64,000 nucleotides of DNA from a virus (IMGVR_UViG_3300045988_089178), one strand, 5' to 3'; positions 16,270-46,175 are shown, counted from the first letter of the stretch. The notes: generated by a model from the sequence alone, not told the origin. Translations and numbers: made by a program.

Positions 16270-19200
16270 GTGGCTAATAATAGAAGATTAAATTATTAGA
16301 TTGGGTTTGATGTTGATACTGCTGAACTTTACAGAGCAGTAAACGAGGCAGTTCAATCTTTAAATAAAATCAGTGCCGGTTCTAAAGTTACAGCAGAATT
16401 GCGACAAGCTTCTTAGTCTGCGCTAGAGTTATCTACTTATATGCATTAGGCATTTAATCAAGGGACTGGAAAGTTAGATTTAGTAGCTTTTGAAAATAGT
16501 TTAAAATCTAGCGGAAGAACTCTTAAAGATTATGCCAACTCGTTAATTTCGATTGGTACCGAGGGGCAAAAGGCTTTTTTAAATGTAGCAACAGCGATTC
16601 AAAAAGCGGAGCTTCCAGCATTGCGCACTGGCAAAATATTTGATTAGTTATGGATTACTATGAAAAATACTATGAGATGGCAGATTACCTCCACCGCGTT
16701 AAATAGTTTTGTGGGAACCATAGAATCAGCTTATGGGTATGCACAAGATCTAAATGAATCATTAACAAATATTCGTATAGTTACTGAAAATTCTGCGGAA
16801 GACATGGCTAAATTTGCTCAATAGGCAAATGAAGCAGCAAAAGCATTAAGTACAACTACTGTTGAATATAGTGATGCTGCTTTGATTTATTATCAATAGG
16901 GTCTTACTGAATAGGAAGTTTTAGATAGAACTGAAACTACTATTAAAATGGCTAATGCCGCAGGAATTAGTGCATAGACCGCTTCGGATCAGCTGACCGC
17001 AGTTTGGAACAACTTCTATGATGGAAGTAAGAGTCTTGAATATTATGCTGATGTAATGGTGCGTTTAGGCGCCGATACAGCGTCTAGCTCTGATGAAATT
17101 TCAGAAGGTATCCAACAATTTGCCTCTGTAGCAGATACAGTTGGATTAAGTTACGAATATGCTGCTTCTGCTCTTGCTACTGTCACTGCTACGACACGTG
17201 AGTCTGCTAATGCAGTAGGTACAGCATTTAGAACTTTATTTGCTCGTATCCAAGGCTTAAATCTTGGAGAAACTCTCGATGATGGCACTACATTAAATAA
17301 ATATTCTAAAGCTCTTGAAAAAGTGGGTATTGATATTTTTGATGTTAATGGTGAGATTAAAACTATGGATACCTTACTTGATGAAATGGGTTCAAAATGG
17401 GAGACCTTATCTAATGACTAGTAGATTGCTTTGGCTTAGACCGTAGCCGGAGTTCGCCAATATACTCGTCTTATTGCACTTATGGATAATTGGGATTTCT
17501 TTTAGGAGAATTTAGCTAGTGCTTATGGAGCAGAGGGATCTCTTTAGGAACAGGCAGATATTTATGCTGAATCTTGGGAAGCTGCTAGAGATAGAGTAAA
17601 AGCATCTGCTGAGGATATTTATGATAGTGTCATAAATCCAGATTTGTATATAAATGCAGATAATGTCTTAACTCCATTTTTATCTGGTATTGCAGACGCC
17701 ATTGATGCAATGGGAGGGTTAAATGGTATTTTAGCTAGTACCGCTTTGTTGATTAATGGGATTTATGGAAATAAGATTGCTGAATCAATGCGTTCTATGG
17801 TGGCTAATATAAAAGTTCTATCTGGATTAGAGTAGAATAGAGCGAGAAATTTGTAGGCATCAGCGGCTGAGATAGCAACTCAATTAGGCTTAACAAACTC
17901 TATGTCTTAGGCTGAAAAAAATCTTTTTAATATTATGGTTGACTAGGCTAATATATAGGGCCAAATAAATAGTAACTACGACGCGATGGATGCTAATGGT
18001 CGTAGATTAATTTAGACAGAACAGTTAAAATTAAGTATTTTGCAAGATTAGTTAAAGACATATTCTTAGTAGTAGATTTAGTCTAGGGAAAATGTATTAA
18101 ATCTTAGAGATACTATTTATTTTAATATAGGAATAAAAGATGGCTGGCAAGAAGAAGTTAAAGCAGAAATAAATAAATTTAATAGTAGAAATAAAAGTAA
18201 TCAAATTTAGTTAAATATAAGAGCTAATAGTAACCTTGATAAAATTTATAATGATGTTACTACTTAGTTAACTAGTTTAATTTAGCAATCTACAAAACTT
18301 GATACAGTGTATCAAGAATTTAAAAAACTTGAAAGCGCTGGAACTGCGACTAGAGACAGCCTTCGTAATTTATTATCTAGTGTTACGGGCAAAGAACATA
18401 ATTATGCTTAGATTGAATGGCTGACTTAGCAATTAGAGGGGTTAAAAAATTAGTCTCAAAATGCAAAATTGCAAATTCGTGAACTTGGGACTATTTTATA
18501 GACTATGGGAGCCGATCCAAGAGTAGTTACTTCTTATATTAATGAATTAACAAAATTGGAGTCTGTTACTGCAAGAACAACTGAACAAGAGGCTCGATAT
18601 TAGGAATTGTTAGCGAAGTTCCCTAGTGTAATTACAAAAGCATTAATACCAACGAGAGATTGGGCTACAATATTGGTTTAGGTTGGAAGTTCTCTTTCTA
18701 GTTTAACTATGATTATGAATGCTTTTTAGAGCATTGGAAGAATTTTTTCTGATGAAGATATGACTTCAACTGAAAGAATTGTAGCTTTGTTTACTTCTCT
18801 TGGTATGTTACTACCCTCTATTATTTCTGTTTATAAAACTTTAAATATGTTAACTACTGCTCATGCTGTTGCAGCAGCGGCGGACGCCGCGGCAACATCA
18901 GTAGAGGCTTTAGCGACAGAATAGCTTGCTATGGCGAAGCAGAAAGCCGCTATGGCTTCCGGCATCTTAACTGCTGCAATTATGGTAGCAATAATAGCGA
19001 TTACTGCAATAACAAGTGCTATAAAAGCATAGCATGAAGCAACCTTGGCTGCTGCTTAGGCCTCTATTGATGCGGCAAATGCAAAAAAAGAAGAAGCACA
19101 AGCGAATAGAGAGTTAATTCAATCTACTCAAAATGCCTTATCTACTTATCAAGAAACTGGGGATGGAAAAGAAGAGTTAGATGATTTAACTCGTTAGTTG

Positions 19201-22200
19201 GCTGAAGCGTATGATTTAGAAGGCAGTGCATTAGCTAGACTAAGTGGATAGTATGAAGATTATAATAGTGTTTTAAAAGCTGCTCAAGAAGCTCAAAGAA
19301 GAGAACTTTAGGAAACTTTGTAGTCCCAAGAAGAAGCGTTACGTGCGAATGAAACTCTCATTCTTGAAACCGCGAGAGAGGGCGTGGGCCACGTATATTT
19401 TGGTGGAAATTATGAGGGGTCTTTTACTGGTTTTAATGATTTTTGGAATGGCACCGAAGAAGATACTGCATCTAATATTCTTCTCAATAATGTGGACGCT
19501 TTATATAGTAGTTGGAATGACAATGTAATTGGCGGAAGAAGAAACTTAGCTTTTTCTATAGACCCAAATAATACAGAAGAATTAATTAATTTTTATGATC
19601 AATTAAATAATGCTATTAATTTGATGAATAATAGCATGACTGTTTCGGAAAGAGGAGCATCTGGACTTTACAATGCTGCTGTTGAGTGGCGAGATAAAAT
19701 GGAAGAGGTTGTCACTCAATATAAAGAAACTAAAGAGAGTATAAATGCTATTCGGGTATAGCTTGGAGAGTTTAATAATTAGACTATTACCGATGATCAA
19801 GTATCAAGTTTAGCGTAGTATAAAATTTGGGTTAACGAAGTTACAGAGGCGCTCACTTCTGCTGGATATGAAGGCGAAGAATTAAACGATATAATCAATG
19901 ATTTAGTATCTACTTCTCTGAATCCTGATATTAGTGGCTTTAAAGATATTTATGACGCAATTTTAGAGGTTGAAGAATTAGTCAATGATGAAGAATTAAA
20001 AAGTAATCTTGAATCTATTTTTACAGATGAAAATTATGATACTTCTGTATTAAATTTATTAAATTGGGGTGCTTTAACATAGGAGACTTTTTAGGATGCC
20101 TATGACAGTGCTAAAAAATATACTGATGCTATTTCCGAAGTTGAAAACGCAACAGAATCTTTAACTACTGCACAATCTGCCTTAGAAACTCTTGGAGATA
20201 GAGATTTAGATCGAGAAGGATTAGAATCACTTTCTAAAACTGTTGATTGGGGAAATCAAGAAAAAGGAATTATTGATTTTAATTAGTTCCTTGCTATGAC
20301 TTTAGTTGAACAATAGAGTTATTTATAGAGGATTATAAATGAGTCCTATTAGGCTGTCAATAATGGATTAATAGATTAGATTAGTGAAGCAAAAAAGAGA
20401 ATAACTGAGCAATAGGATATTTTAAATCAATATAGCGATTCTGAATTAGAACGTGCAGAAAAAGTTGTTTATGCTTGGGAACAAGTTCGAGAAGCGTATA
20501 ATGATTATCAAGGTAGCTTAAATGGCGGAGAAGAATTTAATCTTGATAATTATACGATTGATTGGGATTTGTTAGGTGAAAATTTTGATTGGGAATCTTT
20601 TAAAACCGAAACTGCGGATAACGTAGCTAGTGCATTTGAGTATGGGACAAAAGAAGCTCAAGATAAAATTGATACTGTAACTTTAGCAGAGTAGCTAATT
20701 AGTAGTTTATAGGATGATATAGATTCTAGCACAGCTTAGTTACAAATAAATGCAGAATTAAATTTTTAGAATCAATTAGATTAGATTGAAAATTCCGTTG
20801 ACGGAATTGTAAGTGTATTCGATGCTATTTCTGATGGAGTAAGCTAGACTACCAATGAAGCTGGAGAACAAGTTTGGAGTTTTAGTAGAGAAGCAGCTAA
20901 GGCTATTGAATCTATCTATCCAGGTTTTATAGCTAACGCGGAATTATTAAGGGATGGTACATTTGCTTTAACAGATGAGATGTATCAAGCATTTTATAAT
21001 AGTTCTTAGGGGCAATTAGCTGTTGATGCTGATACCAAATCTAATATGCTTCAAAATCTTATTTCTCTTTTAGAGGCTAAACGAGGAGAGGCTGAAGCTT
21101 CGCTTAAGATCGCTGATCAGCTAGCTTCTGGAGAATTAACTATAAACGAATTATCAGATGAGCAGAAGAGAACTTTATTAGCGGGATATGTAAATGCTTA
21201 GAATCTTGCTAATGGAGAAATGTTAGATGATTAGGTCAATAGTTTAACCGCACAAGATACAAATTAGTAGACTTTATGGACTAATGTTAGCGAGTATTCT
21301 GCTTAGGGCGCGCAGAACATGAGTACTAATGTATAGTTAAATACTCAAAATGTTCTTGCTAATCTTGAAAAAATTAGAGATGCGGCATATGCTACTGGAA
21401 TTCAAGTATCTCAAATAGGAACTGATAATGTTACTAAGCAAGATTTTGATACTTCTGCTGTTTCTTTTGATAGTTCGGCTGCAACAACAATAGATACGAG
21501 TAACGCTAATGATTTCTTAAATTCTTTAACTGCAAATTTAGATGTAGAACCTGTAACCGCAGACGATTTAAATATTTATGGTGATGCTAGTGAGGCACTT
21601 GAAGCTAAGCAATCTTAGGCAGTTGGAGAAGCGCTAAGGGCCATTTATTAGGGGAGTATTGATGGGTATAATGAGGCTATAGCAGCAGCAAAAATAGCCT
21701 AGAGCAAATTATTAGATTCTATTGATGGAGCTATAGAAGGGGTAAAGGGAAGTTCAAGTGGCGGAGATAATGAAGGCACTAAGTATGACGAAGAAGATGA
21801 AAAGACTCTAAAGGATATTGAAGATAGATACCATGAAATAACTCGCGAAATTGAGAATTAGAACGATTTATTAGATGATATTGGAAATAATATAGATAGA
21901 GCCTATGGCGCCAATAAACTTCAAGCATACTAGAGAGAACTTCAAGAATTAGAGAAATAGCAAGCTAATTATAACAAACTACTTAATGAAGCTGAAACTT
22001 ATCTTACAAAAGACTAGGCAGATCTTCAAGGGTTGTTTAATAATTCTCTTATTTTTGATGAAAATGGAGAAATTGAAGGTTATCAAAGTGTTCTTCAATC
22101 TATAATAGATGATTATAATAATAATTTCTTGGCAGATTATAATGCTTTTTTAGTTACCTTTAGTAATCTTACTAAAGATGAATAGGAAGCTAGATAGGCA

Positions 22201-24996
22201 GAATATGATAGTTGGCAGTTACAAAAGGAAGCTGCTGATGAATTATTCCAAGCTCGTTAGGATGCTCTCGCCCAATATGAAGAAACTCTTGACAAAATTC
22301 AAGAAGTAAAGGATGAATAGGAAGAACTAGAGAGAAGCATCGCAGACAATAGATTGAGCTAGATTGAATATAAACTTGAAGTTGTAATAGAAATAAAAGA
22401 TGCTAAAGATGCTGTTCGTGAATTAACTAAAAAGATTGCAGAATCATTTGGCGATGAATTAACTCATGGTATTGAAGTCGCTCGTATTGATGAAAATAGT
22501 GTGAACGAAAATATAAAAATAATCAAGGATTATGAAGAAACACTTAAAAGTTATCAAGAAGAATTGGCTAACGCAACGGATGCGACTGATATTGATGGAA
22601 TTATAAGTAAAATATCTGATTTATAGGGTAAAATAATTTCTACCGCAGAAGCTCTACTTGATTGGGTAGAGGGTCTTGAAGAAATGTTGCCAAATGCATT
22701 AGACGCTGCATCTGAAAGATTCGCTGAATTTACTGATCAACTTGACCATAATGAATCAGTTCTTGGACTTATAAAAGAATTGTATACACTTTAGGGGGTT
22801 ACATATAAAACCGAAGAAGGATTTGAATAGCTCCAAAAAGTAAGCGAAGAAACAATGAAAGCTCAAATAGCAAATGCGCAGTTAAATAAATAGTGGTACG
22901 ACGGTATTAAATAGGAACTTTTAGAAGCTTAGAGTGCGTTAGATGCGTTAGACGGCGATGAAACAGATCCGGCATATGATGGTTTAAAAGCTAATCGAGA
23001 TGCATTATTAGAAGAATATAATGAAGCTCAATAGGCGATGTTAAGTTCCGCGCAAGCCGCTATGGAAACTGCACAAGAGATGTATACTTAGGCTATTGAA
23101 AGAGCCGTATACGAATTTGGATAGGCGGTTTCTGGCGGAGTTGGCTTAGATTTGCTACAAGACAAGTTCGATCATTATATTGAGCAAGAAGATAGATATT
23201 TAGATAAAGTAAATGAAGCATATGAAGTATCTTCTTGGTATAATAAACTTCAATAGGATATTGATAAAGCCACTAATTCTAAAATGAAAGATTAGTTGAA
23301 ATAGTTACAAGAAGAAATTGATATTCGTAGAGAGAATAATACTTTATCTGAATATGATCTAGAAATTCTTGAAGCTAAGTATAATGTTCTTTAGGCTTAG
23401 ATGGCTCTTGAAGATGCTCAAAATGCAAAGAATCAACTTAGATTAGTAAGAGATAGTCAAGGTAATTGGAATTATCAATATACCGCAGATGCGAGTTAGA
23501 TAGCAGATGCGGAATAGAATTTACTTGATGCAGAGAATGAATGGTATAATATAGCTAAACAATAGGTTGAAGATGTTACTGGAGAAATTATTTCTACTTG
23601 GCAGGAATGTCAGGATAAAATAAAAGAGATTTATTCTGATATGACCTTGACTGATGAGGAAAGATCTGCCCGCGCGCAAGAAATCTATTCTTATTATACG
23701 CAGAAGGTTAAGGATCTAGAGAACGAAAAACAGATCGCTATTTAGGATATGACCGAAGCCGGTAATAAAGCCTTAATTGATATGGCTATTGTTGCGGGAG
23801 ACGAGGTAAGTGATCTAACTGGAATTACAAGTCAAGAAATTCAGGATATTATAGCCAACTCTGGCTCTAGTATTATTGATTTGTTATTATCCGATAATGA
23901 ATAGATTCAAGATATAGTTGGAAGTAATACAAAACTTATTGATTTATTTGATAATGTTTTTGCAAAAGATCTTGCTAATATGACTTCTAATGCTGGAAAT
24001 TTTGAAGATTTTCTATCTAAAGCCATGGACGAAGCAAGTGAAGCAATGGAAGATTATCAAACTACTGTCTCTGGAGTGGCTGATTAGACTGGAACAAGCC
24101 TTGATGATTTAGAAGGTTATCTTGATGATGTTACAACTTCTACAGAGTTATGTTCTGATGCGGGATCAGAAGCTGTCACTTAGATGTTAGAATAGATAAG
24201 CACTATTCAAGATTTAAGTCAAGAATATTTAGACATGGCTGAATCAGTTAGAGAATATATAAGGGCTCTTGAGGAGGCTGCTAGAGCAGCTGGAAATACA
24301 ATAGAAAGCGCTGGAGGAATAGATAAAGATGATTTACCTCCCGCTAATTCAGATCAATCTTCTGATAATAACTCTAGCAATAGTAATAGCGGATCTTCCA
24401 GTGGAGGGGCTGGAAGTGGCAATGGAATCCCAGAAGTAGGAGACGAAGTCATTTATACTGGTGGAACTTATTATCATGATTCTTATGGCACAGATCCAGC
24501 AGGTAGACGTGGACCCGGTAAGAAAGTTAAAATAACTAATATAGCTAAAGGCAGACCATATCCGATTCATGTATAGTCTAATAATTCTGCATATGGCTGG
24601 TTAAAAGAAAGTCAAATAAGCGGATTTGATACAGGAGGTTATACTGGAGAATTTGATAATGCTAAATTAGCTTTCTTACACGAAAAAGAGTTAGTTTTAA
24701 ATCAAGAAGATACGAAAAATATTCTCGCGGCGGTTTCTGCTATAAGAGCTTTTGAACCTAGTTTTATAGCTTCTATAGAGAAAGCGCTTGATGGAAATGC
24801 ACTATCTATTTCTAATCTTATGGCATCAAGATTAGGATCTAATACTTAGATTACTCCAGCAGATAACACAGTTGAACCGTATATAAATATTGAGCGAGTT
24901 GAGTTCCCAAATGCGACATCTTCTGATGAAATTCAAGATGCTATTCGTAGTTTAGCTGATGATGCTACTCAATGGGCAAATAGAAGAAAGGGATAA
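16270..24996 (+). CDS. tail tape measure protein, about 2908 codons, with roughly 150-250 in-frame TAG
   Basis: Track ORFs 17056-17421, 17644-17835, 19384-19761 and 24235-24576 all lie in one frame that stays open from GTG 16270 (SD AAAGGAGG) to TAA 24994-24996 when TAG is sense. Ala/Gln/Glu-rich coiled-coil composition with a hydrophobic segment near 18.8-19.0 kb; 12 TAG in a sampled 160-codon stretch. Confidence 0.65.
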
Positions 24997-37446: not shown

Positions 37447-38229
37447 ATGGCTTTATTTAAGATTTTTCGAGGACCAGAAGATAATTTGAATAGTGTACCT
37501 CTTCATGAAGGATACGCTTATTTCACAGAAGATAAAGGAAATCTCTTTATTGATATTAGTAATGAAGAAGGTGGGCGTTTGCAGGTAAATGCCTATGCTG
37601 CTCAAGTTCTAAAGAATGATATTACTGAGATTGATATTGATGATATTTTTCTTAAAAATATGACTGCCACTGTAGCTCAGGGCGGAACTGGACATAATAG
37701 TCTAACTGTAAATGCTTTATTAATTGGTAATGGAACTAATGCGGTAAAGATGGTTGAAATTGCGGCCGGTTAGGTTGTTATCGGAAATAACGAGAATGGT
37801 GTAACAGGATTGCAAGGAACTGGCGCTTTATTTGCCGCTACAGCTGGCGCTCCGCAATTTGGAACGCTTCCAATTTCAGTTGGTGGAACTGGGGCAATTA
37901 ATGCAGCAGGGGCGAGAACTAATTTAGATGTGTATAGCAAATTGGAAACAGATAACTAGATTAGTGGAAGTACTACGGCAGCTTATCCAGCAACTCTTTC
38001 TGCATCAGGTTGGGTATTAAATGAAGATATGTATACATATACTTATTCCAATACTTCTTTAACTTGCGGAAAAGCAGGTAATGTGCCACCTATTATTAGT
38101 TATACTTCTAATCTTGAAGAGTATAGTAAAATTGATCACGCTGATGCATCAGTTGGGGTTGGAATTACCTTTTATACAAAAGAAAAACCAACAAATGATA
38201 TTGCTATTATTATCATTGATGTAAAATAA
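37447..38229 (+). CDS. tail fibre protein (conserved MALFKIFRG N-terminus; PISVGGTGAINAAGARTNLDVY motif), 2 in-frame TAG
   Basis: SD AAAGGAGGG plus ATG 37447; track ORFs 37447-37773 and 38029-38229 are in the same frame; stop TAA 38227-38229. Confidence 0.6.
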
Positions 38230-38277
38230 AAAAAATGGGGAGAACCTTGAAATTAAGGTTCTCCCCATTTTTTTTAT
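38226..38277. terminator. bidirectional rho-independent terminator between convergent + and - operons
   Basis: A-run, 12-bp stem ATGGGGAGAACC/GGTTCTCCCCAT, T-run. Overlaps TAA of the + gene (38227-38229) and TAA of the - gene (38274-38276). Confidence 0.75.
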
Positions 38278-38732
38278 TTCTCGCAAGGAGGTTTACTATA
38301 TAAATGATAATGCGGTTTTTCTTCTCCAAACCATTTCCATCTTAGGTAGTCGTCTAATACTATTGCCAAAAGGCTTAAAAAGAACCAGGCGATAGAGAAT
38401 GGTAAACAAATCTACCCCATAAAATTCAATGGAACGTGAGAATAATCCCAAATACCTAAGCCTAGTTTTACATTTAATACTAGACCAAAGATTAATTCTA
38501 AAGCAGTTATGATTAAAGAGCCTTTTACTCCTTGAGTAAGAATAGATTCTTCCCAAAGAACGTTCTCATTCATTAGTCCTATTAATAAAAAGCATAAGCC
38601 GCCCAATAAGAACATAGACCAATGACAAGTTCCAAAGCTGATAAAAGTTTTATAGAGGAACTCTATACCGTAATATAGAGTTCCTCCAACTGCAAATAGA
38701 ATTATATTTTTACTCACTGTCGGTATCTTCAT
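38274..38732 (-). CDS. multi-pass membrane protein (about 4 TM), 1 in-frame TAG at 38412-38414
   Basis: Track ORF 38412-38732 (MKIPTVSKNIILFAVGG...) continues through TAG to TAA 38274-38276; last gene of the DGR-containing - strand operon. Confidence 0.45.
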
Positions 38733-39372
38733 AGTTTAATTCAATAGCTTTTAATTTATCTATTGAATCAGCTTCGAATATCTAAGTTTTATATTCTTGC
38801 ATTAAATGATATTTGGGATATACCACATTTAAAATAGCTAAACTTAGAGCGGATAATTGCTCTAAACTCCATGGCACACATTCTTCGTGTCGAGCGTGCC
38901 ACTCAAGCGTAGGATTTTCTACTTCAGCCGCGAGAGCGACTTGATATTGATTGAGATTTAAGCTAATCTCAGACTGGTCCTCCTACGTAATTCCATATTC
39001 TTTTCCATCAACCCAAGTTAGTGGGTGGGTAGCAAGATACTCTGCGAATAGTTTCTTGTTTTCCTCTTGTTTGTCATACTTTGCCTAATCTAAATCAGAA
39101 GTGAATGTTCCATCTTCTTGATTATATATTGAATAATTAGGAGTAACATCTGATGGAATTGTTTCTATCTCTAATACTTTTACAGCATTAGATTGATTTA
39201 ATACATCGGCTTTAATTAGAGTATAATGTGTATCTCCATTTGAGCCGATAACCCCAGTTCCCTCTTCTTCCTCGCAGGCAACGACAATACCATTTGAGGA
39301 TTGCAGTTTAATGTAACGTGCTTCTGAAAGAATATCAACTACTACATTCTCTCTATTTAATAGAATATACAT
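38713..39372 (-). CDS. hypothetical protein, 3 in-frame TAG
   Basis: SD AAAGGAG plus ATG 39372 forming a TAATG overlap with the extended RT stop; track ORF 39085-39372 continues through TAG 39085-39087 to TAA 38713-38715. Confidence 0.4.
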
Positions 39373-40589
39373 TACTTTATTTCAACTCCTTTAAATAATG
39401 AACGAAAATAATTGTCCATATCTTGAATTATATAAAAACAAGTTCCTTTAGAAATATGTGCCCTCCAACCTTGATAGGATTTCTAAATTTCATCTGTTGA
39501 AATTTTACCCTCTAGCCATAGCGCTTGCATTTTCTTTAACTTTCTGCGCTAATGAGCCACTTTCTTTTTAAAAGGAATTTGTATTATATGATTAGTGTCT
39601 GTGAGATAAAAGTTCCACTTTAAGTATTTTAATGGAGCGTGACGTTTGCCGTCCGCGTGAATAGGAGAGATTCTAGTAATAGTAGTCTTTTTCTTATTCA
39701 TCTTTAATCCTTGCTTATTTAAGCGAACTTCTATTCTCTTTTCACATTCGGCTAAGTATTGACTGTCATTGTGGAATAAATATAAATCATCCATATAACG
39801 ACCATAATACTTAATATGTAACTCTTCTTTGATGAAGTGGTCAATTTCGTTCAATGCTAGCAATGCGAATAATTGTGATGTTTGACTTCCTAATCCAAGA
39901 CTTTTATTATCATATTCATAGTATTTGCGGCCAGGCTTGAAATTAGTGGTATTAATTCTCGTGTATTTGTGCCGTTTACTAATATAATAATCTTTCCCTG
40001 GTATGGGAGAGGAATCTTTTGTTAGCTTAAAAGAAAATGTATCTATTAAATAACAGCATAGCTGATAAATTCTTTTATCTTTTATCAAACGTTTAGCCGC
40101 TTTCTTTAAAGATTTATGGTCAATAGAATCAAAATATTTTTGAATATCAATTCTTAACCCATAAAAATCTTTTCCTAATCCATATTCTCTATGAGCTTGT
40201 TGAAGGTGTTTCTTTACTCTTTTTAAAGCAAAGTCTATTCCTTTTCCTCTTAAAGTCGCACAATTATCGTAGATAAATCTAGGAGTTAATTCTGGTAATA
40301 AAACTTGTTCACATAACGCATTTTGTACCAGTCTGTCGTTGATATGACACGCTCTTATGTCTCTTGGTTTGCCTCGTTCGATTATCGAAAAACAACTAAA
40401 CACAAGCTATTCGTATTCACACGCTCGCAGATCAGCTTCTGTTTTTAAAATTGTTTCTATCCTATTCTCTTCAAAATTAATTGTACTATCTTTCCATCGA
40501 ACGTTTCGACATACCTTATAAGACGCATCATACATAGCGTCAAAACTACAAAAACGCTCGAAAGCAGTATCTTGGTTTATTTCAGACAT
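39372..40589 (-). CDS. diversity-generating retroelement reverse transcriptase. Contains an internal TAG (40407-40409) and a TAG at 39549-39551 that, if read through, extends the protein 58 aa to TAA 39372-39374
   Basis: RT motifs: KPRDIRACHINDRLVQNAL (motif 1), FIYDNCATLRGKGIDFAL (motif 2), GSQTSQLFALLALNEIDHF (motif B), YGRYMDDLYLF (motif C, YxDD). Track ORFs 40407-40589 and 39549-40403 share a frame and are split only by TAG. SD AAGGAG before ATG 40589. Immediately downstream of the TR. Confidence 0.85.
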
Positions 40590-40895
40590 ACTTTCTCCTT
40601 ATCATGTAGCTATAGTGGTAGCTACTCGAGCTCCACGTCTACAGTCTTACTTTATCCACTTTTTCAGTGAAATGGTTAAGTTCTCCTTAGATGAAAAGGC
40701 AGATCTACCTATAGTATATTATTCGATAGTTGTAGAGCAAAGCTCTTTAACGGTCTCTCAATCTCTTCCCCACATAGTGGGTGCAATCCAGAGTAAACCT
40801 TAATTAGATGGATAATAATATACTCCGGGGTACTATTTAGGCGTTGCTCGTTTGCGCTGCTCCGCAGCTTAACTCGCAACATGATAGCTCCATCT

Positions 40896-40998
40896 AAGCC
40901 GGCGCCAGCCCGTTGCTGTTGTTGTAGTTGTTGTTGTTCGCAGATCCATCGTTGTTGACATTGCAAACGTTGTTCGAGTTGTTGTAGTTACGGGACCG
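40896..40998 (-). repeat. DGR template repeat (TR), about 103 bp, AAC-rich on the - (sense) strand; non-coding
   Basis: Matches 41619-41721 at 88-90 of about 101-103 positions; every mismatch sits where the TR has A on the - strand. In the VR reading frame it reads RSRNYNNSNNVCNVNNDGSANNNNYNNSNGLAP (13 AAC codons); lies between avd and RT. Confidence 0.85.
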
Positions 40999-41028
40999 AA
41001 AGATACAGAACTTAACCGCAGAAAAATA

Positions 41029-41523
41029 TTATCGACCTCTCCTATGGGTTTTAGGAGCCGAATATCTATGCTCGACTATAAGTTTATCTCTATTTTTTCT
41101 ATCTTGGATTGATTCTTTTACTTTCTTAGTCAATCTAGCTAGATGTTCAAAAGATCTTCTTTTCTTTTTGCTGTTTTGAGCATACTAATAAATACATAGG
41201 TCGATTTGTCGAAATATACTATCACAATATTCAATCGCTTTATTGTGATATTCATTTCTTTTTGTAAGGGTTTCTTTATCTTTTAAGTTTATCTTACACG
41301 CCTCATAGCAGCAAGCATGTATACCCTTTCCGCATTTAATTATATCGTACCCGAACGCTTGAAGAGGTTGACCCTCTCCAAGCAGTCCAGGTTTGCAGAT
41401 TTGTTTTCCATCCTTATCAAATTCTCTAGGACGAGTTAAGACTAAAATGTAGCCAACCAATTCACGGGCTTTATAAAGACAGTCTTGTTTTGATAGGTGT
41501 CTATCCTTTACTTTTACAGACAT
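41029..41523 (-). CDS. avd: DGR accessory variability determinant (Avd-like small basic helical protein). 112 aa to TAG 41185-41187, or 164 aa if TAG is read through to TAA 41029-41031
   Basis: Small basic ORF (track 41185-41523) located between target-VR and TR exactly as in canonical DGRs. The extension ends 31 nt before the TR. Confidence 0.6.
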
Positions 41524-41604
41524 TTAAAATTTCCCTCACTTGAATATATAATTTTTTTATTGGACAATTTAACCTTAACTGTCCCGAATTGTTATTTTGC
41601 TGTA

Positions 41605-43362
41605 TTATCCAATGACGAAAGCCGGCGCCAGCCCGTGGCTGTTGTAGTAGTAGATGTTGTTCGCAGACCCATCGCTGTAGACAAAGCAAACGTAGACCGA
41701 GTTGTTGTAGTAACGGGACCGTTCCCAATACCACATCGTTGAACTCGTCAACGAACCATTGGCGTTCATCTGGTATTTAACTCTAGTAGAGTTACTTGTA
41801 TAGTAACTATAGGCCGTCTAACTTCCTCCAACAGTCCACTCCTAATAAGAACTAGCATAGCCGCTAGAGCTAGTAAATCCCATCTCACATTCAGAAGGTA
41901 GCCAACATTTTGCAGTTGTTTGAACATCCGCAGTATTATTCTAATTACCATTACTAGCAGAACTTGTCTTCTTAGTAACAGATTTAATAGAAGCGGTTGC
42001 GCTACATCTATTACCAAAGTCATTGCATAAGGATTGAGCGGTTGAACCATTCCATAACGCGTTACTACCAAATGTTGTAGTATTAGGTAAAGTTCCCGCA
42101 GTCTGGAAAGTTAATGTTCCAGTTCCGTCCTAATCAGCGCCAATACAAATCATTGTAGCGGCGTTGGCGCCAAGTACCGCACTAGAAAGACTTACAAGTT
42201 TCTTTTTACCTACACATTTCTTTCTTTCACTGGAAGAAGCCTTAGCTGCCCAAGTCTTTAATCCAGCCCACCACTTAGTATCACCAGTAGCAGTTTCAGA
42301 ACCCCACTCCCAATAGCTTGCTGTTACAGTAACAGTTTTGTTACCTGGAGCAGTATGGTTAGTTCCAGCCGCGACTTTAATAGTAATCGTGGTAGAAGAA
42401 ATAGCCGTACTGCCATCACCTTTAATAGTAAGAATATTACCACTTAAAGAGAGGGTAAGACCGGTAACACTAGTTGGAGTATAGCTAATAGCTCCATCTC
42501 CCGCGCGAGTAATAGTAACTTTAACGCCAGCATTATAATTATCTCCATCAAGAGCAACAGAAGTTGGATTTACAGTTAAACTACCCGCGGCTTTATTAAT
42601 AATCCAGTTTACATCAAAGTTATCGGTTGTCTTATCAGCCCATCTATAATTGCTCTTTAGAGTAAATGTAGCTGTATAAGTTCCTGCATTAGTAGCGGAA
42701 GTAGTTCCGCCAATCGTCATATAAGTGGTATTGAAATTATTCCAATAAGAAGTTCCACTTACTGATTGACTATTACCTGTATAGGTAAGATTACTTTTCC
42801 AGGTTGGTTTAGCGACAGATTTACGCTCAACAGTTACCGTAAATTTCGCAGATTGAGTTACTTCATTCTCTGTATAAGAAACAGTAATTTGCTAGCTGCC
42901 AACTGTAGTTAAGGATGTTGGTGAGCACGTATAACCTGTAACAGCCGCGCTTTTACTATCAGAGTAACTTGCTGTAACTACCATTCCTGTTGTTTGAAGA
43001 GTGTCGCCATATTCATAGGTCATCTTAGTTGGATTAGTAATAATCTAAATACTAAGAAGTTTATGAATAACAGTTACCTTCTAGGTAGTTTGACAAGTTT
43101 CACCGAGTTCTGAATAAGTAATAGTTACTTCAGTAACTCCATCTGTTAAAGGACTGGGAGTAACTTGATATCCAGTTACTTCTGCTGTTGTTACAATAAC
43201 GCCATCCACGCCGTAAGATGCGGTAACTACCATTCCAGCAGGATTAAATGTGTCACCAGCAAGATAGCTTGTTTTATTAGGGGGAGTGGTTACTTCAATT
43301 TTTACAAGAGAAAGAGAGCCTCCACCTTTTCCACCCTACTCAGCTAAAATACATTTAGGCAA
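41605..43362 (-). CDS. DGR target protein, about 585 aa. N-terminal tandem bacterial Ig-like repeats (xTYxYGDTLxTTGMVVTASY), C-terminal C-type-lectin/FGE-like fold (CWLPSECE motif) ending in the VR; 8 in-frame TAG
   Basis: SD AAGGAGG plus TTG 43362. Single frame open to TAA 41605-41607 when TAG is sense; track ORF 42130-42720 is an internal fragment in the same frame as the VR. Confidence 0.7.
41619..41721 (-). repeat. DGR variable repeat (VR) at the 3' end of the target gene
   Basis: Near-identical to the TR except at 13 (14 counting the boundary) positions, all corresponding to TR adenines (sense strand). Encodes RSRYYNNSVYVCFVYSDGSANNIYYYNSHGLAPAF, 14 codons before the target stop. Shared GC-rich 3' end CGGGCTGGCGCCGGC (IMH-like). 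Confidence 0.85.
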
Positions 43363-43482
43363 ATTGTTTACCTCCTTCTATCTAGCTATTGCTATAAACA
43401 AATCTAAATTACTAGATAGAAGGTCGAGGATGGAAGCGATCTTCGCTCCAGTCTTTTAGAAAGTCATTAACAATTTCCGAGA

Positions 43483-43498
43483 AAAAGTACACTTTTTA
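43483..43498. promoter_or_regulatory. 14-16 bp motif AAAAAGTACACTTTTT in the divergent intergenic region; its reverse complement recurs at 43643-43657
   Basis: Inverted pair about 145 bp apart between the DGR target start (43362, -) and the tail fibre start (43688, +). Confidence 0.35.
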
Positions 43499-43687
43499 AC
43501 AGGAAAAATACTTCTTCTGTCTAGATAATAAAAAATTGGGAAAAGGGTAAGAAACCCTTTTCCCAAAAGTGAGTATCTTACTCTTTTCAAATATATATGA
43601 AAGAAAGAGTAGATAAATTATATATAGTTGACCAAGTTCAGTAAAGTGTACTTTTTTAAAGATTTTAGATGAAAGGAGAAAATATCT

Positions 43688-44326
43688 ATGGAATGTATTT
43701 TAACTGGATAGGTTAAAAATCAAAATGCTATTACCGTACCAGGCGGCGGTAGCGCAGAAATGGGAGAAACATTAGGGTTAGGGCCTTATACTATTGAATT
43801 TGATGAAGAAGATAATGAAAATCTTACTGCATCATCAATAGAATATAATAATGAAGCTTCAAGTATGAAAGCCACTAATGTTCAATCAGCTATTGATGAG
43901 CTTTTTACCGATGTCAGTGAGGGCAAAACCCTAATAGCGACCGCAGTCACTGACAAGGGAGTAGAAACTGCGGCAACCGATAGTTTTTCAACTATGGCAG
44001 ATAAGATAGGATAGATTACAACAGAAACCCCTATAGAAACAGTAGATGTTATATTCGAGTCATTGAGAGGTATAAGTGGAGGTACAGTGATAATAGAATA
44101 TGAAAATGCACCAATGTCAGTATGGGTAATGCAGAAAAATAATTATAAAGTAATAAAAAATAGCATTTTAACTATAAATGCCGGTTCTTCTTCAGGGCTC
44201 AAAATTACTCCCCAGTCTGCATATGAAAGTTTGGGGGCTATATTAATAAATAATAATTATCAAGTTATAGCATATAAAATTATTGGTCCCGCTACAATTA
44301 CTTCTACTGGAGGTAATATTGATTAA
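43688..44326 (+). CDS. tail fibre / receptor-binding protein (motif SMKATNVQSAIDEL), 2 in-frame TAG
   Basis: SD AAAGGAGAAAA plus ATG 43688; track ORFs 43760-44014 and 44063-44326 are in the same frame. Confidence 0.5.
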
Positions 44327-44348
44327 ATTTAGGAGGTAGTATTATACT

Positions 44349-44723
44349 ATGATAAAAGTAAATGGGAAAAAGGTTGCTGGAATAGGGTAGCCTGGATTAA
44401 ACGGCAAATCTGCTTATGAAACAGCTAAAGAAGGAGGGTTTACTGGAACTGAAAAGGAGTTCAATACTATATTAGCAAATTCTGCACTTAAACCTATTAT
44501 TAAATTGATAACTCTATATTCATCAGCTTGGTCTAATAATACTCAAACAGTAAATATAATTGGAGTATTGAGCGATGAGGGCAAATAGATAATTTGTCCA
44601 ACTCCAACAATAAAAGATATAGATATATATAATAATTCAGGCATTTAGTGTATAAATCAACAAGAAAATAGTTTAACTTTTAAAGCCCAAAAAATTCCAG
44701 AAAATGATATATAGATATATATA
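44349..44723 (+). CDS. tail-fibre-associated protein with collagen-like/GxPGLNGKSAYE motif, 3 in-frame TAG
   Basis: SD AGGAGG plus ATG 44349; open to TAA 44721-44723. Confidence 0.4.
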
Positions 44724-44743
44724 ATTTTGTAGGAGGTGCGAAC

Positions 44744-44992
44744 ATGATTATTAACCAAACTTTTCAGACGGAAAAGTATTCAATAATAGATAAAACAAGC
44801 CTTCAATATGGCTATCCAGTAAGAGCAACCCCTGGGGAAATTGTTTACAGCAGTCCTATGAGTGCAGGAATATCAGATAATGTATATTTAATAAAAGATG
44901 GAAGCTCTATTGATAATGTTTATTCAGATGGTAGATATAAATTTATAATGCCAGAAGGTGATGTTTTGATTGCTAGAGATTATCCTTGGTAA
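44744..44992 (+). CDS. hypothetical protein, no TAG
   Basis: Intact 82-aa track ORF with SD GGAGGTG. Confidence 0.5.
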   Translation: MIINQTFQTEKYSIIDKTSLQYGYPVRATPGEIVYSSPMSAGISDNVYLIKDGSSIDNVYSDGRYKFIMPEGDVLIARDYPW

Positions 44993-45026
44993 TCTTATAT
45001 ATATTATATAATAAAATTTTATATAA

Positions 45027-45734
<708 letters not shown>

Positions 45735-45785
45735 AGTTAAATTATCTTCCTATTGTTTTATATATAATATAAAGGAGGAATTAAT

Positions 45786-46175
45786 ATGCCTGAAATTGTT
45801 ATTCAAATATTCTAGCTTTGTATTCTTCCTCTGCTTGGTATTTTAACAAAATATCTCATAGATTTCCTCTCTGCTAAACGAGATGAGTTAAATTCTAAGA
45901 CAGAGAATGAAACAGCTTAGAAATACACCACTATGATATTTGATACTATTACTAAATGTGTAATAGCTACAAATCAGACTTATGTTAATAGCTTAAAAGA
46001 ACAAGGTGCTTTTGATGCTGAGGCTCAAAAAATTGCATTTGATAAGACTATGGAATCTGTATTAGAGATCTTATCATCTGATGCAAAACAATATATTATT
46101 GAGACAACTGGCGACTTAAATACTTACCTAACTAATCTCATTGAAGCCGCGGTTAATGAAAATAGAGCATCATGA
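45786..46175 (+). CDS. putative holin (LL-H-like: single N-terminal TM then amphipathic helices), 2 in-frame TAG
   Basis: SD AAAGGAGG plus ATG 45786; track ORF 45933-46175 is the in-frame C-terminal fragment. Confidence 0.4.

What the first reader, a model, noticed from the sequence alone, without database searches (positions are those of the whole stretch)
39372..43362. Complete diversity-generating retroelement with a clean adenine-specific TR-to-VR mutation pattern
On the - strand the order is target gene ending in the VR (41619-41721), avd (41523 down), TR (40896-40998), RT (40589 down), which is the canonical DGR architecture. TR and VR are identical at about 88 of 101 aligned positions; all 13 differences occur where the TR carries A on the sense strand (T on the + strand as given). 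The + strand substitutions are T to G/A/A/A/C/C/A/A/A/A/A/C/A, plus one more at the repeat boundary, with zero changes at the other roughly 66 non-A positions. The TR is AAC-rich and reads in the VR frame as RSRNYNNSNNVCNVNNDGSANNNNYNNSNGLAP. The VR encodes RSRYYNNSVYVCFVYSDGSANNIYYYNSHGLAPAFVIG-stop, the last residues of a 585-aa protein with tandem Ig-like repeats and a C-type-lectin/FGE-like C-terminal fold (CWLPSECE). Both repeats share the GC-rich 3' end CGGGCTGGCGCCGGC, where an IMH-like element would lie. The cassette sits convergent to, and between, two tail-fibre gene clusters, so the diversified protein is probably a receptor- or surface-binding tail accessory.
Basis: seen in the sequence. 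Interest (0 to 1): 0.9.

Follow-up and report, generated by a model that had tools for sequence, protein, structure and literature searches.

The report
Active phage DGR in TAG-recoded genome
This is a real, complete and evidently active diversity-generating retroelement that rewrites the tip of a lectin-type tail protein in a large gut phage; it is a well-known kind of system, and the main twist is that the phage reads the TAG stop codon as glutamine, so every gene of the cassette looks broken under the standard code.

Summary
TR (40896-40998) and VR (41619-41721) on the minus strand are 103 nt long and differ at 13 sites, all at TR adenines (P about 1e-7).

All parts of a DGR are present:
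- an RT with the GxxxSQ and YMDD motifs
- a four-helix-bundle Avd-like protein
- a 585-aa target with Ig-like domains and a C-terminal DUF6273 (C-type-lectin-like) domain that ends in the VR
- a GC-rich 14-mer at the 3' end of both repeats
- a 307-nt covarying structured RNA between the TR and the RT

The element is active in nature. In strains 98-99% identical in the flanks, VRs are only 80-83% identical and vary only at TR-A positions. Sixteen near-identical target proteins carry 16 different VR peptides.

The RT, avd and target genes carry 3, 1 and 8 in-frame TAGs and are fragmented under the standard code.

The phage is a roughly 146-kb relative of the phAss-1/SPbeta-like siphoviruses, probably infecting Clostridia. 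DGRs with amber-interrupted RT genes and DUF6273 targets are both already published. Verdict: a new member of a known kind, of modest interest.

The parts
41605..43362 (-). DGR target gene: 585 aa, TTG start 7 nt after AAGGAGG, 8 in-frame TAG (read as Gln). About four Ig-like domains are followed by a C-terminal DUF6273 (C-type-lectin-like) domain that ends in the VR.
41619..41721 (-). Variable repeat (VR). It encodes RSRYYNNSVYVCFVYSDGSANNIYYYNSHGLAPA, the last residues of the target.
   Evidence: Hypervariable protein columns alternate with invariant scaffold residues in homologues.
41622..41635 (-). IMH-like GC-rich 14-mer (GGGCTGGCGCCGGC) at the 3' end of the VR. VR-specific sequence (CTTTCGTCATTGG) follows it.
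   Evidence: Seen directly in the sequence. Conserved in relatives.
41029..41523 (-). Avd-like accessory gene: 164 aa, 1 in-frame TAG, basic. Four-helix bundle with a beta-hairpin insertion and an RRGR tail.
40896..40998 (-). Template repeat (TR): non-coding, with 35 adenines, mostly in 14 AAC codons plus one AAT. It can specify about 1.1e20 peptides with no stop possible.
   Evidence: TRs are 98-99% conserved among close strains while VRs are not.
40899..40912 (-). IMH*-like copy of the GC-rich 14-mer at the 3' end of the TR. TR-specific sequence (TTAGATGGAGC) follows it.
40590..40895 (-). Structured spacer RNA between the TR and the RT (306 nt): 61 consensus pairs in 9 helices, 25 of them with compensatory changes.
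   Evidence: 0/500 shuffles; 94% of cells paired against 32-50% in slid registers
40889..40903 (-). 5' strand of helix 1 (the last TR bases plus GCTTAGATGGA). Candidate template strand of a TR:spacer template-primer duplex.
   Evidence: helix 1: 14 pairs, 97.6% of cells paired, 2 covarying. Analogy with the Bordetella DGR RNA.
40797..40812 (-). 3' strand of helix 1 (TCCATCTAATTAAGGT). Candidate priming strand.
40843..40880 (-). Stem-loop immediately 3' of the TR (GTTGC..GTT..GCTGC-GGA-GCAGC..AAC..GCAAC) with internal loops. Candidate Avd-binding stem-loop.
   Evidence: Helices 3-4: 13 pairs, 9 with compensatory changes. Compare.
40597..40699 (-). 3' domain of the spacer (helices 5-9). Helix 5 pairs CCTT.TCAT with ATGA.AAGG and so occludes the Shine-Dalgarno sequence of the RT.
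39372..40589 (-). DGR reverse transcriptase: 405 aa, with 3 in-frame TAG (the first at 40407-40409). Motifs LGLGSQTSQ (GxxxSQ) and YMDD.
   Evidence: RVT_1 61.3 bits. phrog_1423 1.6e-83. tblastn to DGR phages. Motifs read.
38274..39372 (-). Two co-directional downstream genes in the same transcription unit: g27 (220 aa, weak DUF4376) and g26 (152 aa, membrane protein, PF06541). Not known DGR parts.
38229..38274 (.). Strong bidirectional terminator (20-bp stem) closing both the minus-strand DGR unit and the convergent plus-strand tail gene cluster.

Best explanation
This is a canonical diversity-generating retroelement of a roughly 146-kb tailed phage, probably infecting gut Clostridia, that decodes TAG as glutamine.

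Proposed mechanism:
1. A minus-strand transcript covers target-avd-TR-spacer-RT.
2. The TR and its structured 3' spacer are bound by the RT together with the Avd-like four-helix-bundle protein.
3. cDNA synthesis is primed in cis from the spacer strand that pairs with the 3' end of the TR (helix 1), and it misincorporates opposite template adenines.
4. The cDNA replaces the VR, directed by the GC-rich IMH-like 14-mer.
5. This rewrites 19 codons (about 1e20 possible peptides, never a stop) on the ligand-binding face of the C-terminal DUF6273 lectin-like domain. That domain belongs to an Ig-domain-rich, tail-associated receptor-binding or adhesion protein.

Because the RT, Avd and (in this genome) the target contain in-frame TAGs, the machinery can be made only when TAG is being read as Gln.

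Shown here: the parts, the A-specific pattern, TR-to-VR information flow across strains, hypervariation in natural populations, the folds, the RNA covariation, and the sense reading of TAG. Inferred by analogy with the Bordetella phage BPP-1: cis-priming, Avd-RNA binding, IMH-directed homing, and receptor binding.
For: A-specific pattern. 13 of 13 TR/VR mismatches fall at TR-A. 26 related loci carry TR/VR pairs with 13-27 mismatches, almost all at TR-A.

Activity in nature. In strains L001, L002 and L004 the flanks are 97.6-99.4% identical and the TRs 98-99%, but the VRs only 80-83%, and every variable VR column is a TR-A position. Non-A TR changes (L004 GGG>GGA, L005 CTGG>CTCG) are mirrored in that strain's own VR, as TR-to-VR copying predicts. 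Sixteen cluster members are 97.6% identical outside the VR and 55.5% inside it, with 16 distinct VR peptides.

Proteins. The RT matches RVT_1 and phrog_1423 and carries GxxxSQ and YMDD; its nearest relatives are DGR RTs of Roseburia, Faecalibacterium, Bordetella and Vibrio phages. The Avd-like model matches Avd-family structures and Bordetella Avd. The target has DUF6273, and its model matches a solved DUF6273 domain. Papers PMC10743442 and PMC11792537 describe DUF6273 as a C-lectin-like DGR target domain with the VR at its C-terminus.

RNA. The spacer has covarying helices that resemble the TR:Sp duplex and the stem-loop just 3' of the TR described for BPP-1.

Genetic code. Long-ORF coverage rises from 27% to 91% with TAG as sense. 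TAG aligns mainly with CAA (342) and CAG (221) in diverged relatives.
Against: - No conserved GC-rich hairpin follows the VR, unlike BPP-1.
- No upstream/downstream 'stop' duplex was found.
- No suppressor tRNA was found in the window or within about 10 kb beyond either end in relatives.
- The target's place in the virion and its ligand are unknown.
- Variation among strains shows past activity in the lineage, not activity of this particular copy. One close strain (L004) has a TGA at RT codon 55.
Confidence: 0.9

Rival explanations
1. The cassette is real, but the target is not a receptor-binding tail fibre. It would instead be a virion-decorating adhesin (Hoc-like Ig domains plus a lectin tip) that binds mucus glycans or other non-host surfaces. 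The DGR would then tune adherence to the environment rather than host range.
For: The protein consists of about four Ig-like domains plus a lectin-like domain. It has no trimeric fibre or baseplate-attachment domain that any search recognised. Papers on related DUF6273 targets raise the same alternative.
Against: The gene lies among tail and tail-fibre-like genes (g25 phrog_1591 and g32 phrog_26419). DGR targets with known function in phages, such as Mtd, are receptor-binding proteins (established knowledge).
Confidence: 0.25
2. This copy is a fossil DGR. The TR/VR pattern records past activity, but the element in this genome no longer functions.
For: A 98%-identical strain (L004) carries a nonsense TGA in the RT. 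Only 13 of 35 adenines differ here, against up to 27 in relatives.
Against: In this window the RT, avd, TR, spacer and GC-rich 14-mer are all intact, and no non-A mismatch has accumulated in 103 nt. Nearly identical strains each have a different VR, which implies very recent turnover.
Confidence: 0.08
3. The ORFs are genuinely interrupted. Under the standard code the RT, avd and target are pseudogenes, and the repeat is a decaying duplication.
For: Under table 11 every cassette gene is split by TAG. No suppressor tRNA was found.
Against: TAG read-through restores 91% coding density across 64 kb. TAG positions align with Gln codons, mostly CAA, which is two mutations away from TAG. Interrupted genes are conserved full-length in hundreds of relatives. 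The mismatch pattern is A-specific. The related phAss-1 group is documented as TAG-to-Gln (PMC10607447).
Confidence: 0.01
4. The RT belongs to another prokaryotic RT system (retron, group II intron, or a defence RT such as DRT or Abi), and the repeats are coincidental.
For: There are weak NCBIfam matches to group II intron, Drt and retron models.
Against: All those matches are far below their curated cut-offs (for example 73.6 against 300 bits). The motif is GxxxSQ, not GxxxSP. The best tblastn hits are DGR phages. The TR/VR/Avd architecture and the A-specific variation are DGR-specific.
Confidence: 0.01

Closest known systems
Bordetella phage BPP-1 DGR (mtd-avd-TR-brt), the prototype
   Same: - Same gene order: target with a 3' VR, avd, TR, RT.
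- Adenine-specific TR-to-VR differences.
- AAC-rich TR.
- GC-rich 14-mer at the 3' end of both repeats.
- Structured RNA 3' of the TR, with a TR-end:spacer duplex and a stem-loop just after the TR.
- Lectin-fold target tip.
   Different: - The RT is a distant homologue; Bordetella phages are among the tblastn hits but outside the top 25.
- No Avd HMM detects the Avd-like protein, which is longer (164 aa, with a beta-hairpin and a basic tail).
- The spacer is about 307 nt, against about 140 nt in BPP-1 (my recollection of the literature).
- No hairpin follows the VR, and no stop duplex was found.
- The target is Ig domains plus DUF6273, not the Mtd beta-prism/beta-sandwich/C-lectin trimer; a profile of the C-terminal domain has no sequence match in the PDB.
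- The genes contain in-frame TAG codons.
DGRs of gut Firmicutes phages with DUF6273 targets (phages nd4/nd12, Roseburia phage Shimadzu, Faecalibacterium phages Lelie, Roos, Pioen, Toutatis)
   Same: - Closest RTs by tblastn (33-35% for nd12 and Shimadzu, 29% for Toutatis and Lelie).
- Targets built from Ig-like domains and a DUF6273 C-lectin-like domain with the VR at the C-terminus of DUF6273.
- Tyr/Ser/Gly/Asn/Asp/Arg-rich VR repertoire.
   Different: - Those are roughly 30-60-kb standard-code phages or prophages; this is a roughly 146-kb TAG-recoded phage with its own replication module.
- Tentaclins have the lectin domain at the N-terminus followed by Ig domains; here the order is reversed, so this is not a tentaclin.
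- There is one target here, not two.
[quoted passage not shown]
   Same: A DGR in a stop-codon-recoded gut phage. The RT gene contains suppressed TAG codons, which hampers automated detection. The RT has GxxxSQ, and the target carries a C-terminal C-type lectin domain.
   Different: - Unrelated phage lineage: here there is no crAss-type module, but Pol III alpha, NrdD, primase and an SPbeta-like portal.
- Most zeta-crAss DGRs lack avd; this one has an Avd-like gene.
phAss-1 / 'Phassvirus' group of TAG-to-Gln recoded gut phages (PMC10607447)
   Same: Closest named phage by portal (36%). Genomes of about 136-146 kb, TAG recoding concentrated in virion genes, Pol III alpha replication, human gut origin.
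   Different: - Distant relative only; no nucleotide match.
- The phAss-1 paper never mentions an RT or a DGR.
- phAss-1 encodes suppressor tRNAs; none was found in the roughly 84 kb sampled for this lineage.

Membership tests
Diversity-generating retroelement (DGR) | Reverse transcriptase of the DGR type (RT domain with the [LIV]GxxxSQ motif and YxDD) | tested here: met
   RVT_1 61.3 bits against a cut-off of 29.6. phrog_1423 1.6e-83. LGLGSQTSQ and YMDD are in the sequence. Best tblastn hits are DGR phages. Group II, retron and Drt models fall far below their cut-offs. No phylogeny was built.
Diversity-generating retroelement (DGR) | TR/VR repeat pair whose differences are confined to TR adenines | tested here: met
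   13 of 13 mismatches at TR-A and 0 of 68 non-A positions changed, P = 1.4e-7. The same pattern holds in 26 relatives.
Diversity-generating retroelement (DGR) | VR at the 3' end of a target ORF, within a ligand-binding (usually C-type-lectin) fold | tested here: met
Diversity-generating retroelement (DGR) | Unidirectional TR-to-VR transfer with hypervariation of the VR and conservation of the TR in populations | tested here: met
   Close strains: TR 98-99% identical, VR 80-83%, variable columns only at TR-A positions, and non-A TR changes mirrored in the VR. There are 16 distinct VR peptides among 16 proteins.
Diversity-generating retroelement (DGR) | IMH at the VR and IMH* at the TR (GC-rich element followed by sequences that differ) | tested here: met
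   GGGCTGGCGCCGGC is at the 3' end of both repeats, and divergent sequence follows. Its function in homing cannot be tested here.
Diversity-generating retroelement (DGR) | Structured RNA flanking the TR (TR:spacer primer duplex, stem-loop 3' of the TR, upstream/downstream stop duplex) | tested here: inconclusive
   A duplex and a stem-loop with covariation are present. No stop duplex was found. Equivalence to the BPP-1 elements is by analogy only.
Diversity-generating retroelement (DGR) | Adenine-mutagenic cDNA synthesis and retrohoming | not testable with these tools
   Needs biochemistry or read-level data.
Avd (accessory variability determinant; Pfam PF05635 / 'four helix bundle protein' family; family names from memory) | Sequence match to the family model | tested here: not met
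   No hit in Pfam, PHROGs or NCBIfam, nor in a PDB search with a 38-sequence profile at E up to 10.
Avd (accessory variability determinant; Pfam PF05635 / 'four helix bundle protein' family; family names from memory) | Small basic four-helix bundle encoded between the target and the TR | tested here: met
Stop-codon-recoded phage, genetic code 15 (TAG = Gln) | Coding density restored only when TAG is read as sense | tested here: met
   Coverage is 27% under the standard code, 91% with TAG as sense, 29% with TGA and 50% with TAA.
Stop-codon-recoded phage, genetic code 15 (TAG = Gln) | TAG positions correspond to Gln in homologues | tested here: met
   In relatives below 90% identity, TAG aligns with CAA 342 times and CAG 221 times (Gln 563); the next residue is Lys at 136.
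Stop-codon-recoded phage, genetic code 15 (TAG = Gln) | Phage-encoded suppressor tRNA(CUA) | tested here: inconclusive
   ARAGORN finds no tRNA in the window, in the 33 DGR-centred loci, or in about 10 kb beyond each window end in 8 relatives per side. About 60 kb of the genome was not sampled.
Tentaclins (PMC10743442) | N-terminal C-lectin domain followed by Ig-like domains, with a C-terminal anchoring Ig domain | tested here: not met
   The domain order here is Ig-like domains first and DUF6273 last.

The most novel reading that the evidence does not exclude
TAG recoding gates the mutagenic machinery.

In most relatives the RT carries 6-8 in-frame TAGs and avd 5-6, as dense as in virion genes, while the target often has 0-1. 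RT-Avd could then be made only once TAG is decoded as Gln, presumably late in infection. That would confine adenine mutagenesis and homing to genomes about to be packaged.

Together with a spacer RNA whose 3' domain occludes the RT ribosome-binding site, this would be a translational timing layer not described for DGRs.
Probability: 0.35. Interest if true: 0.5.

Novelty: new member of a known kind. Interest (0 to 1): 0.3.

Why it matters
It adds a clean, population-validated DGR to a lineage of large TAG-recoded Firmicutes phages where none has been described. It also shows concretely why pipelines that call genes with the standard code would fragment or miss such cassettes: the RT is split into pieces, and no HMM detects the Avd-like protein.

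The set of about 26 related cassettes gives a covarying model of the TR-flanking RNA. That model could help generalise the Bordetella RNP mechanism to Gram-positive phage DGRs.

It does not change what is known about how DGRs work.

Tried and rejected
1. Invertible promoter. The 28-nt inverted repeat covering the first codons of the target and of divergent g32 (43328-43355 / 43692-43719), together with the nearby serine invertase, suggested a switch. All 30 relatives are collinear across 43356-43691, so there is no support.
2. Additional targets. A scan of both strands for sequences matching the TR at non-A positions found only the one VR.
3. Rfam. Nothing meaningful in 38000-46000.
4. BPP-1-like hairpin after the VR. 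No conserved structure.
5. Upstream/downstream 'stop' duplex. Not predicted.
6. Pseudoknot stem CCGGAGTA/TACTCTGG. It is 90% paired but has only one covarying pair, so it is tentative.
7. Foldseek of the whole target model. Hits were dominated by Ig tandems and uninformative for the C-terminal domain. A sequence profile of the C-terminal domain against the PDB found nothing.
8. Suppressor tRNA. Not found in the window or in relatives' flanks.
9. crAss-like identity. Rejected on gene content.
10. Megablast against deposited phages. No match.

Full report
**Observation.**
On the minus strand, TR (40896-40998) and VR (41619-41721) are a 103-nt direct repeat 723 nt apart. They differ at 13 positions, and at every one the TR has A. 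The TR contains 35 A and 68 other bases, so the chance that 13 random mismatches all fall on A is 1.4e-7. Similarity stops abruptly on both sides, and both repeats end in GGGCTGGCGCCGGC.

**A hidden premise: the genetic code.**
Under the bacterial code the cassette genes are fragments. The VR sits in a 54-aa ORF, the RT is split at 40407-40409, and avd stops after 112 aa. Across the whole window, stop-to-stop ORFs of at least 150 aa cover 27% under the standard code and 91% if TAG is sense; recoding TGA or TAA does not help. With TAG read through, 61 tightly packed genes appear.

In relatives below 90% identity, codons aligned to the window's TAGs are mostly CAA (342) and CAG (221). Lys is next at 136. 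CAA is two substitutions from TAG, so mutational proximity cannot explain this, and TAG encodes Gln.

TAG density is 2.3 per 100 codons in the virion genes, 1.0 in the DGR unit and 0.6 in the replication genes. That is the pattern published for recoded phages (PMC10607447). No tRNA gene was found in the window or within about 10 kb beyond either end in relatives. About 60 kb of the genome remains unsampled.

**The phage.**
The window encodes:
- a sigma-factor-like protein, a portal and virion proteins
- large tail proteins, including a 2851-aa ORF
- NrdD-, Pol III alpha-, RecD- and primase-like proteins; these four names are my own reading of the translations printed and were not checked against any family library

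The portal's nearest named relative is phage phAss-1 (36%), followed by SPbeta-like and Enterococcus phages. No nucleotide match exists among deposited phages.

Relatives are contigs of up to 148 kb, and one is circularly permuted at about 146 kb. Some are binned with Oscillospiraceae, Eubacterium and Clostridia MAGs, which is only a weak hint to the host. It is not a crAss-like phage.

**The parts.**
- **RT (40589 to 39372, 405 aa, 3 TAG).** RVT_1 scores above its cut-off, phrog_1423 gives 1.6e-83, and the LGLGSQTSQ (GxxxSQ) and YMDD motifs are present. The best tblastn hits are phage nd12, Roseburia phage Shimadzu, Faecalibacterium phages and Vibrio VP585; Bordetella phages are also among the matched records. 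Other RT families score far below their cut-offs.

**Evidence of activity.**
Twenty-six related loci have TR/VR pairs of about 103 nt with 13-27 mismatches, almost all at TR-A. In the three closest strains the flanks are 97.6-99.4% identical and the TRs 98-99%, but the VRs only 80-83%, and every variable VR column is a TR-A position.

Rare non-A differences between TRs (GGG>GGA in L004, CTGG>CTCG in L005) reappear in the same strain's VR. That is what copying from the TR predicts.

In 43 homologues, hypervariable columns (2.7-3.1 bits) alternate with invariant scaffold residues. Sixteen proteins of one 741-member 90% cluster are 97.6% identical outside the VR and 55.5% inside, with 16 different VR peptides rich in Tyr, Gly, Asn and Ser.

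The TR can encode 1.1e20 peptides at 19 codons and can never create a stop. Only one VR exists in the window.

**RNA.**
The 306 nt between the TR and the RT are conserved and structured: 61 consensus pairs in nine helices, 25 pairs with compensatory double changes. Of all cells, 94% are paired, against 32-50% in slid registers, and 0 of 500 shuffles reach the observed covariation. Three features stand out:
- **Helix 1** pairs the last TR bases and the following GCTTAGATGGA (40903-40889) with TCCATCTAATTAAGGT (40812-40797).
- **A covarying stem-loop with internal loops** lies immediately 3' of the TR (40880-40843).
- **A 3' domain (40699-40597)** has a closing helix that contains the RT's Shine-Dalgarno sequence.

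[quoted passage not shown] That correspondence is an inference. I found no counterpart of the upstream/downstream stop duplex. A possible pseudoknot stem has weak support. No conserved hairpin follows the VR.

**Transcription unit.**
A minus-strand terminator at 43566-43536 precedes the target. A strong bidirectional terminator at 38229-38274 ends the unit target-avd-TR-RT-g27-g26, where it meets the convergent tail gene cluster.

**Mechanism.**
The best explanation is a standard DGR cycle. The RT and the Avd-like protein bind the TR-spacer RNA. cDNA synthesis is cis-primed from the spacer strand of helix 1 and is error-prone at adenines. The cDNA then homes to the VR, directed by the GC-rich element, and diversifies the lectin-like tip of an Ig-rich tail-associated protein. 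The steps shown and the steps inferred are listed under Best explanation.

**Comparison and novelty.**
Phage DGRs, DUF6273 targets in gut Firmicutes phages, and DGRs whose RT genes carry suppressed amber codons (zeta crAss-like phages, PMC12386605) have all been published. New here are the host lineage (a phAss-1/SPbeta-like TAG-recoded phage; the phAss-1 paper mentions no RT or DGR), the sequence-divergent Avd-like protein, and the covariation-supported RNA model.

A standard-code relative (L028/L061, RT 65% identical) carries the same cassette, so the DGR is not tied to recoding. In most recoded relatives the RT and avd carry 5-8 TAGs while the target often has none. This suggests, but does not show, that recoding gates the mutagenic machinery.

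**Verdict.**
This is a real, complete, recently active DGR and a new member of a known kind. Interest is 0.3.

Noticed in passing
window 1-64000: The whole window uses TAG as a sense codon, inferred to be Gln. Long-ORF coverage is 27% under the standard code and 91% with TAG as sense. TAG supplies 49% of Gln-type codons in virion genes and 16% in replication genes. A 2851-aa ORF (16441-24996) contains 99 TAGs.
   Followed up: yes
window 45063-45734 (+): A serine recombinase / DNA invertase (Resolvase domain 9e-28; phrog_125 7.7e-50) with in-frame TAGs, conserved in nearly all relatives. A palindromic site sits at its 5' end: 45015-45077 here, and a perfect 17-nt palindrome in L012 and L016.
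   Followed up: partly
window 44024-44996 (g32 C-terminus, g33, g34): This tail-fibre-like segment between the DGR target and the invertase is replaced by unrelated sequence in strains L001 and L002, which are about 97-99% identical on either side. It varies from 0 to about 2.6 kb in other relatives. It looks like a swappable cassette next to the invertase, which would be a second, DGR-independent diversification hotspot.
   Followed up: partly
window 43328-43355 and 43692-43719: A 28-nt inverted repeat covers the first ~10 codons of the divergent genes for the DGR target (LPKCILAEQGGK) and g32 (MECILTGQVKN), so the two proteins share an N-terminal peptide. None of the 30 relatives carries the segment between the repeats inverted.
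   Followed up: yes
L004:8160-8165 (relative, RT codon 55): In a strain 98% identical to the window, the RT has CGA>TGA (R55*). Either the RT was recently inactivated or this is an assembly error. Its VR is among the most diverged from the TR (22 A-site differences).
   Followed up: partly
L028 and L061 (contig IMGVR_UViG_3300045988_145614): A relative with 65% RT identity uses the standard code (ORF coverage 0.89 against 0.90 with TAG as sense). It has no TAG in the RT, avd or target, yet it has the same DGR architecture with 21 of 22 mismatches at TR-A. The family therefore spans a genetic-code change.
   Followed up: partly
window 40597-40699 (-): The Shine-Dalgarno sequence of the RT (AAGGAG, 40600-40595) is paired in a conserved helix with CCTT at 40699-40696. 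An invariant second copy of TAAGGAGAA lies about 90 nt upstream. This may be translational control of the RT.
   Followed up: no
window 43374-43423 (-): A 17-nt inverted repeat (CCTTCTATCTAG...CTAGATAGAAGG) lies immediately upstream of the target's ribosome-binding site and overlaps it. It could be an operator or an RBS-sequestering hairpin.
   Followed up: no
window 38229-38274: A perfect 20-bp-stem bidirectional terminator lies between the convergent tail-gene cluster and the DGR unit. It produced only spurious weak Rfam sRNA/miRNA hits.
   Followed up: yes
window 1-64000; L001-L033; L034-L061; L092-L120: No tRNA genes anywhere in the window or in about 10 kb beyond each end in relatives, although the related phAss-1 phages carry 28-36 tRNAs including suppressors. 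The source of TAG decoding is unidentified.
   Followed up: partly
L122, L123 (CALWOP010000177.1, CALCFD010000051.1): Contigs of 148,971 and 147,780 bp with 86-89% identical RTs are binned into Oscillospiraceae and Eubacterium MAGs. They look like whole phage genomes placed in bacterial bins, which is a weak hint to the host and a possible contamination issue in those MAGs.
   Followed up: no
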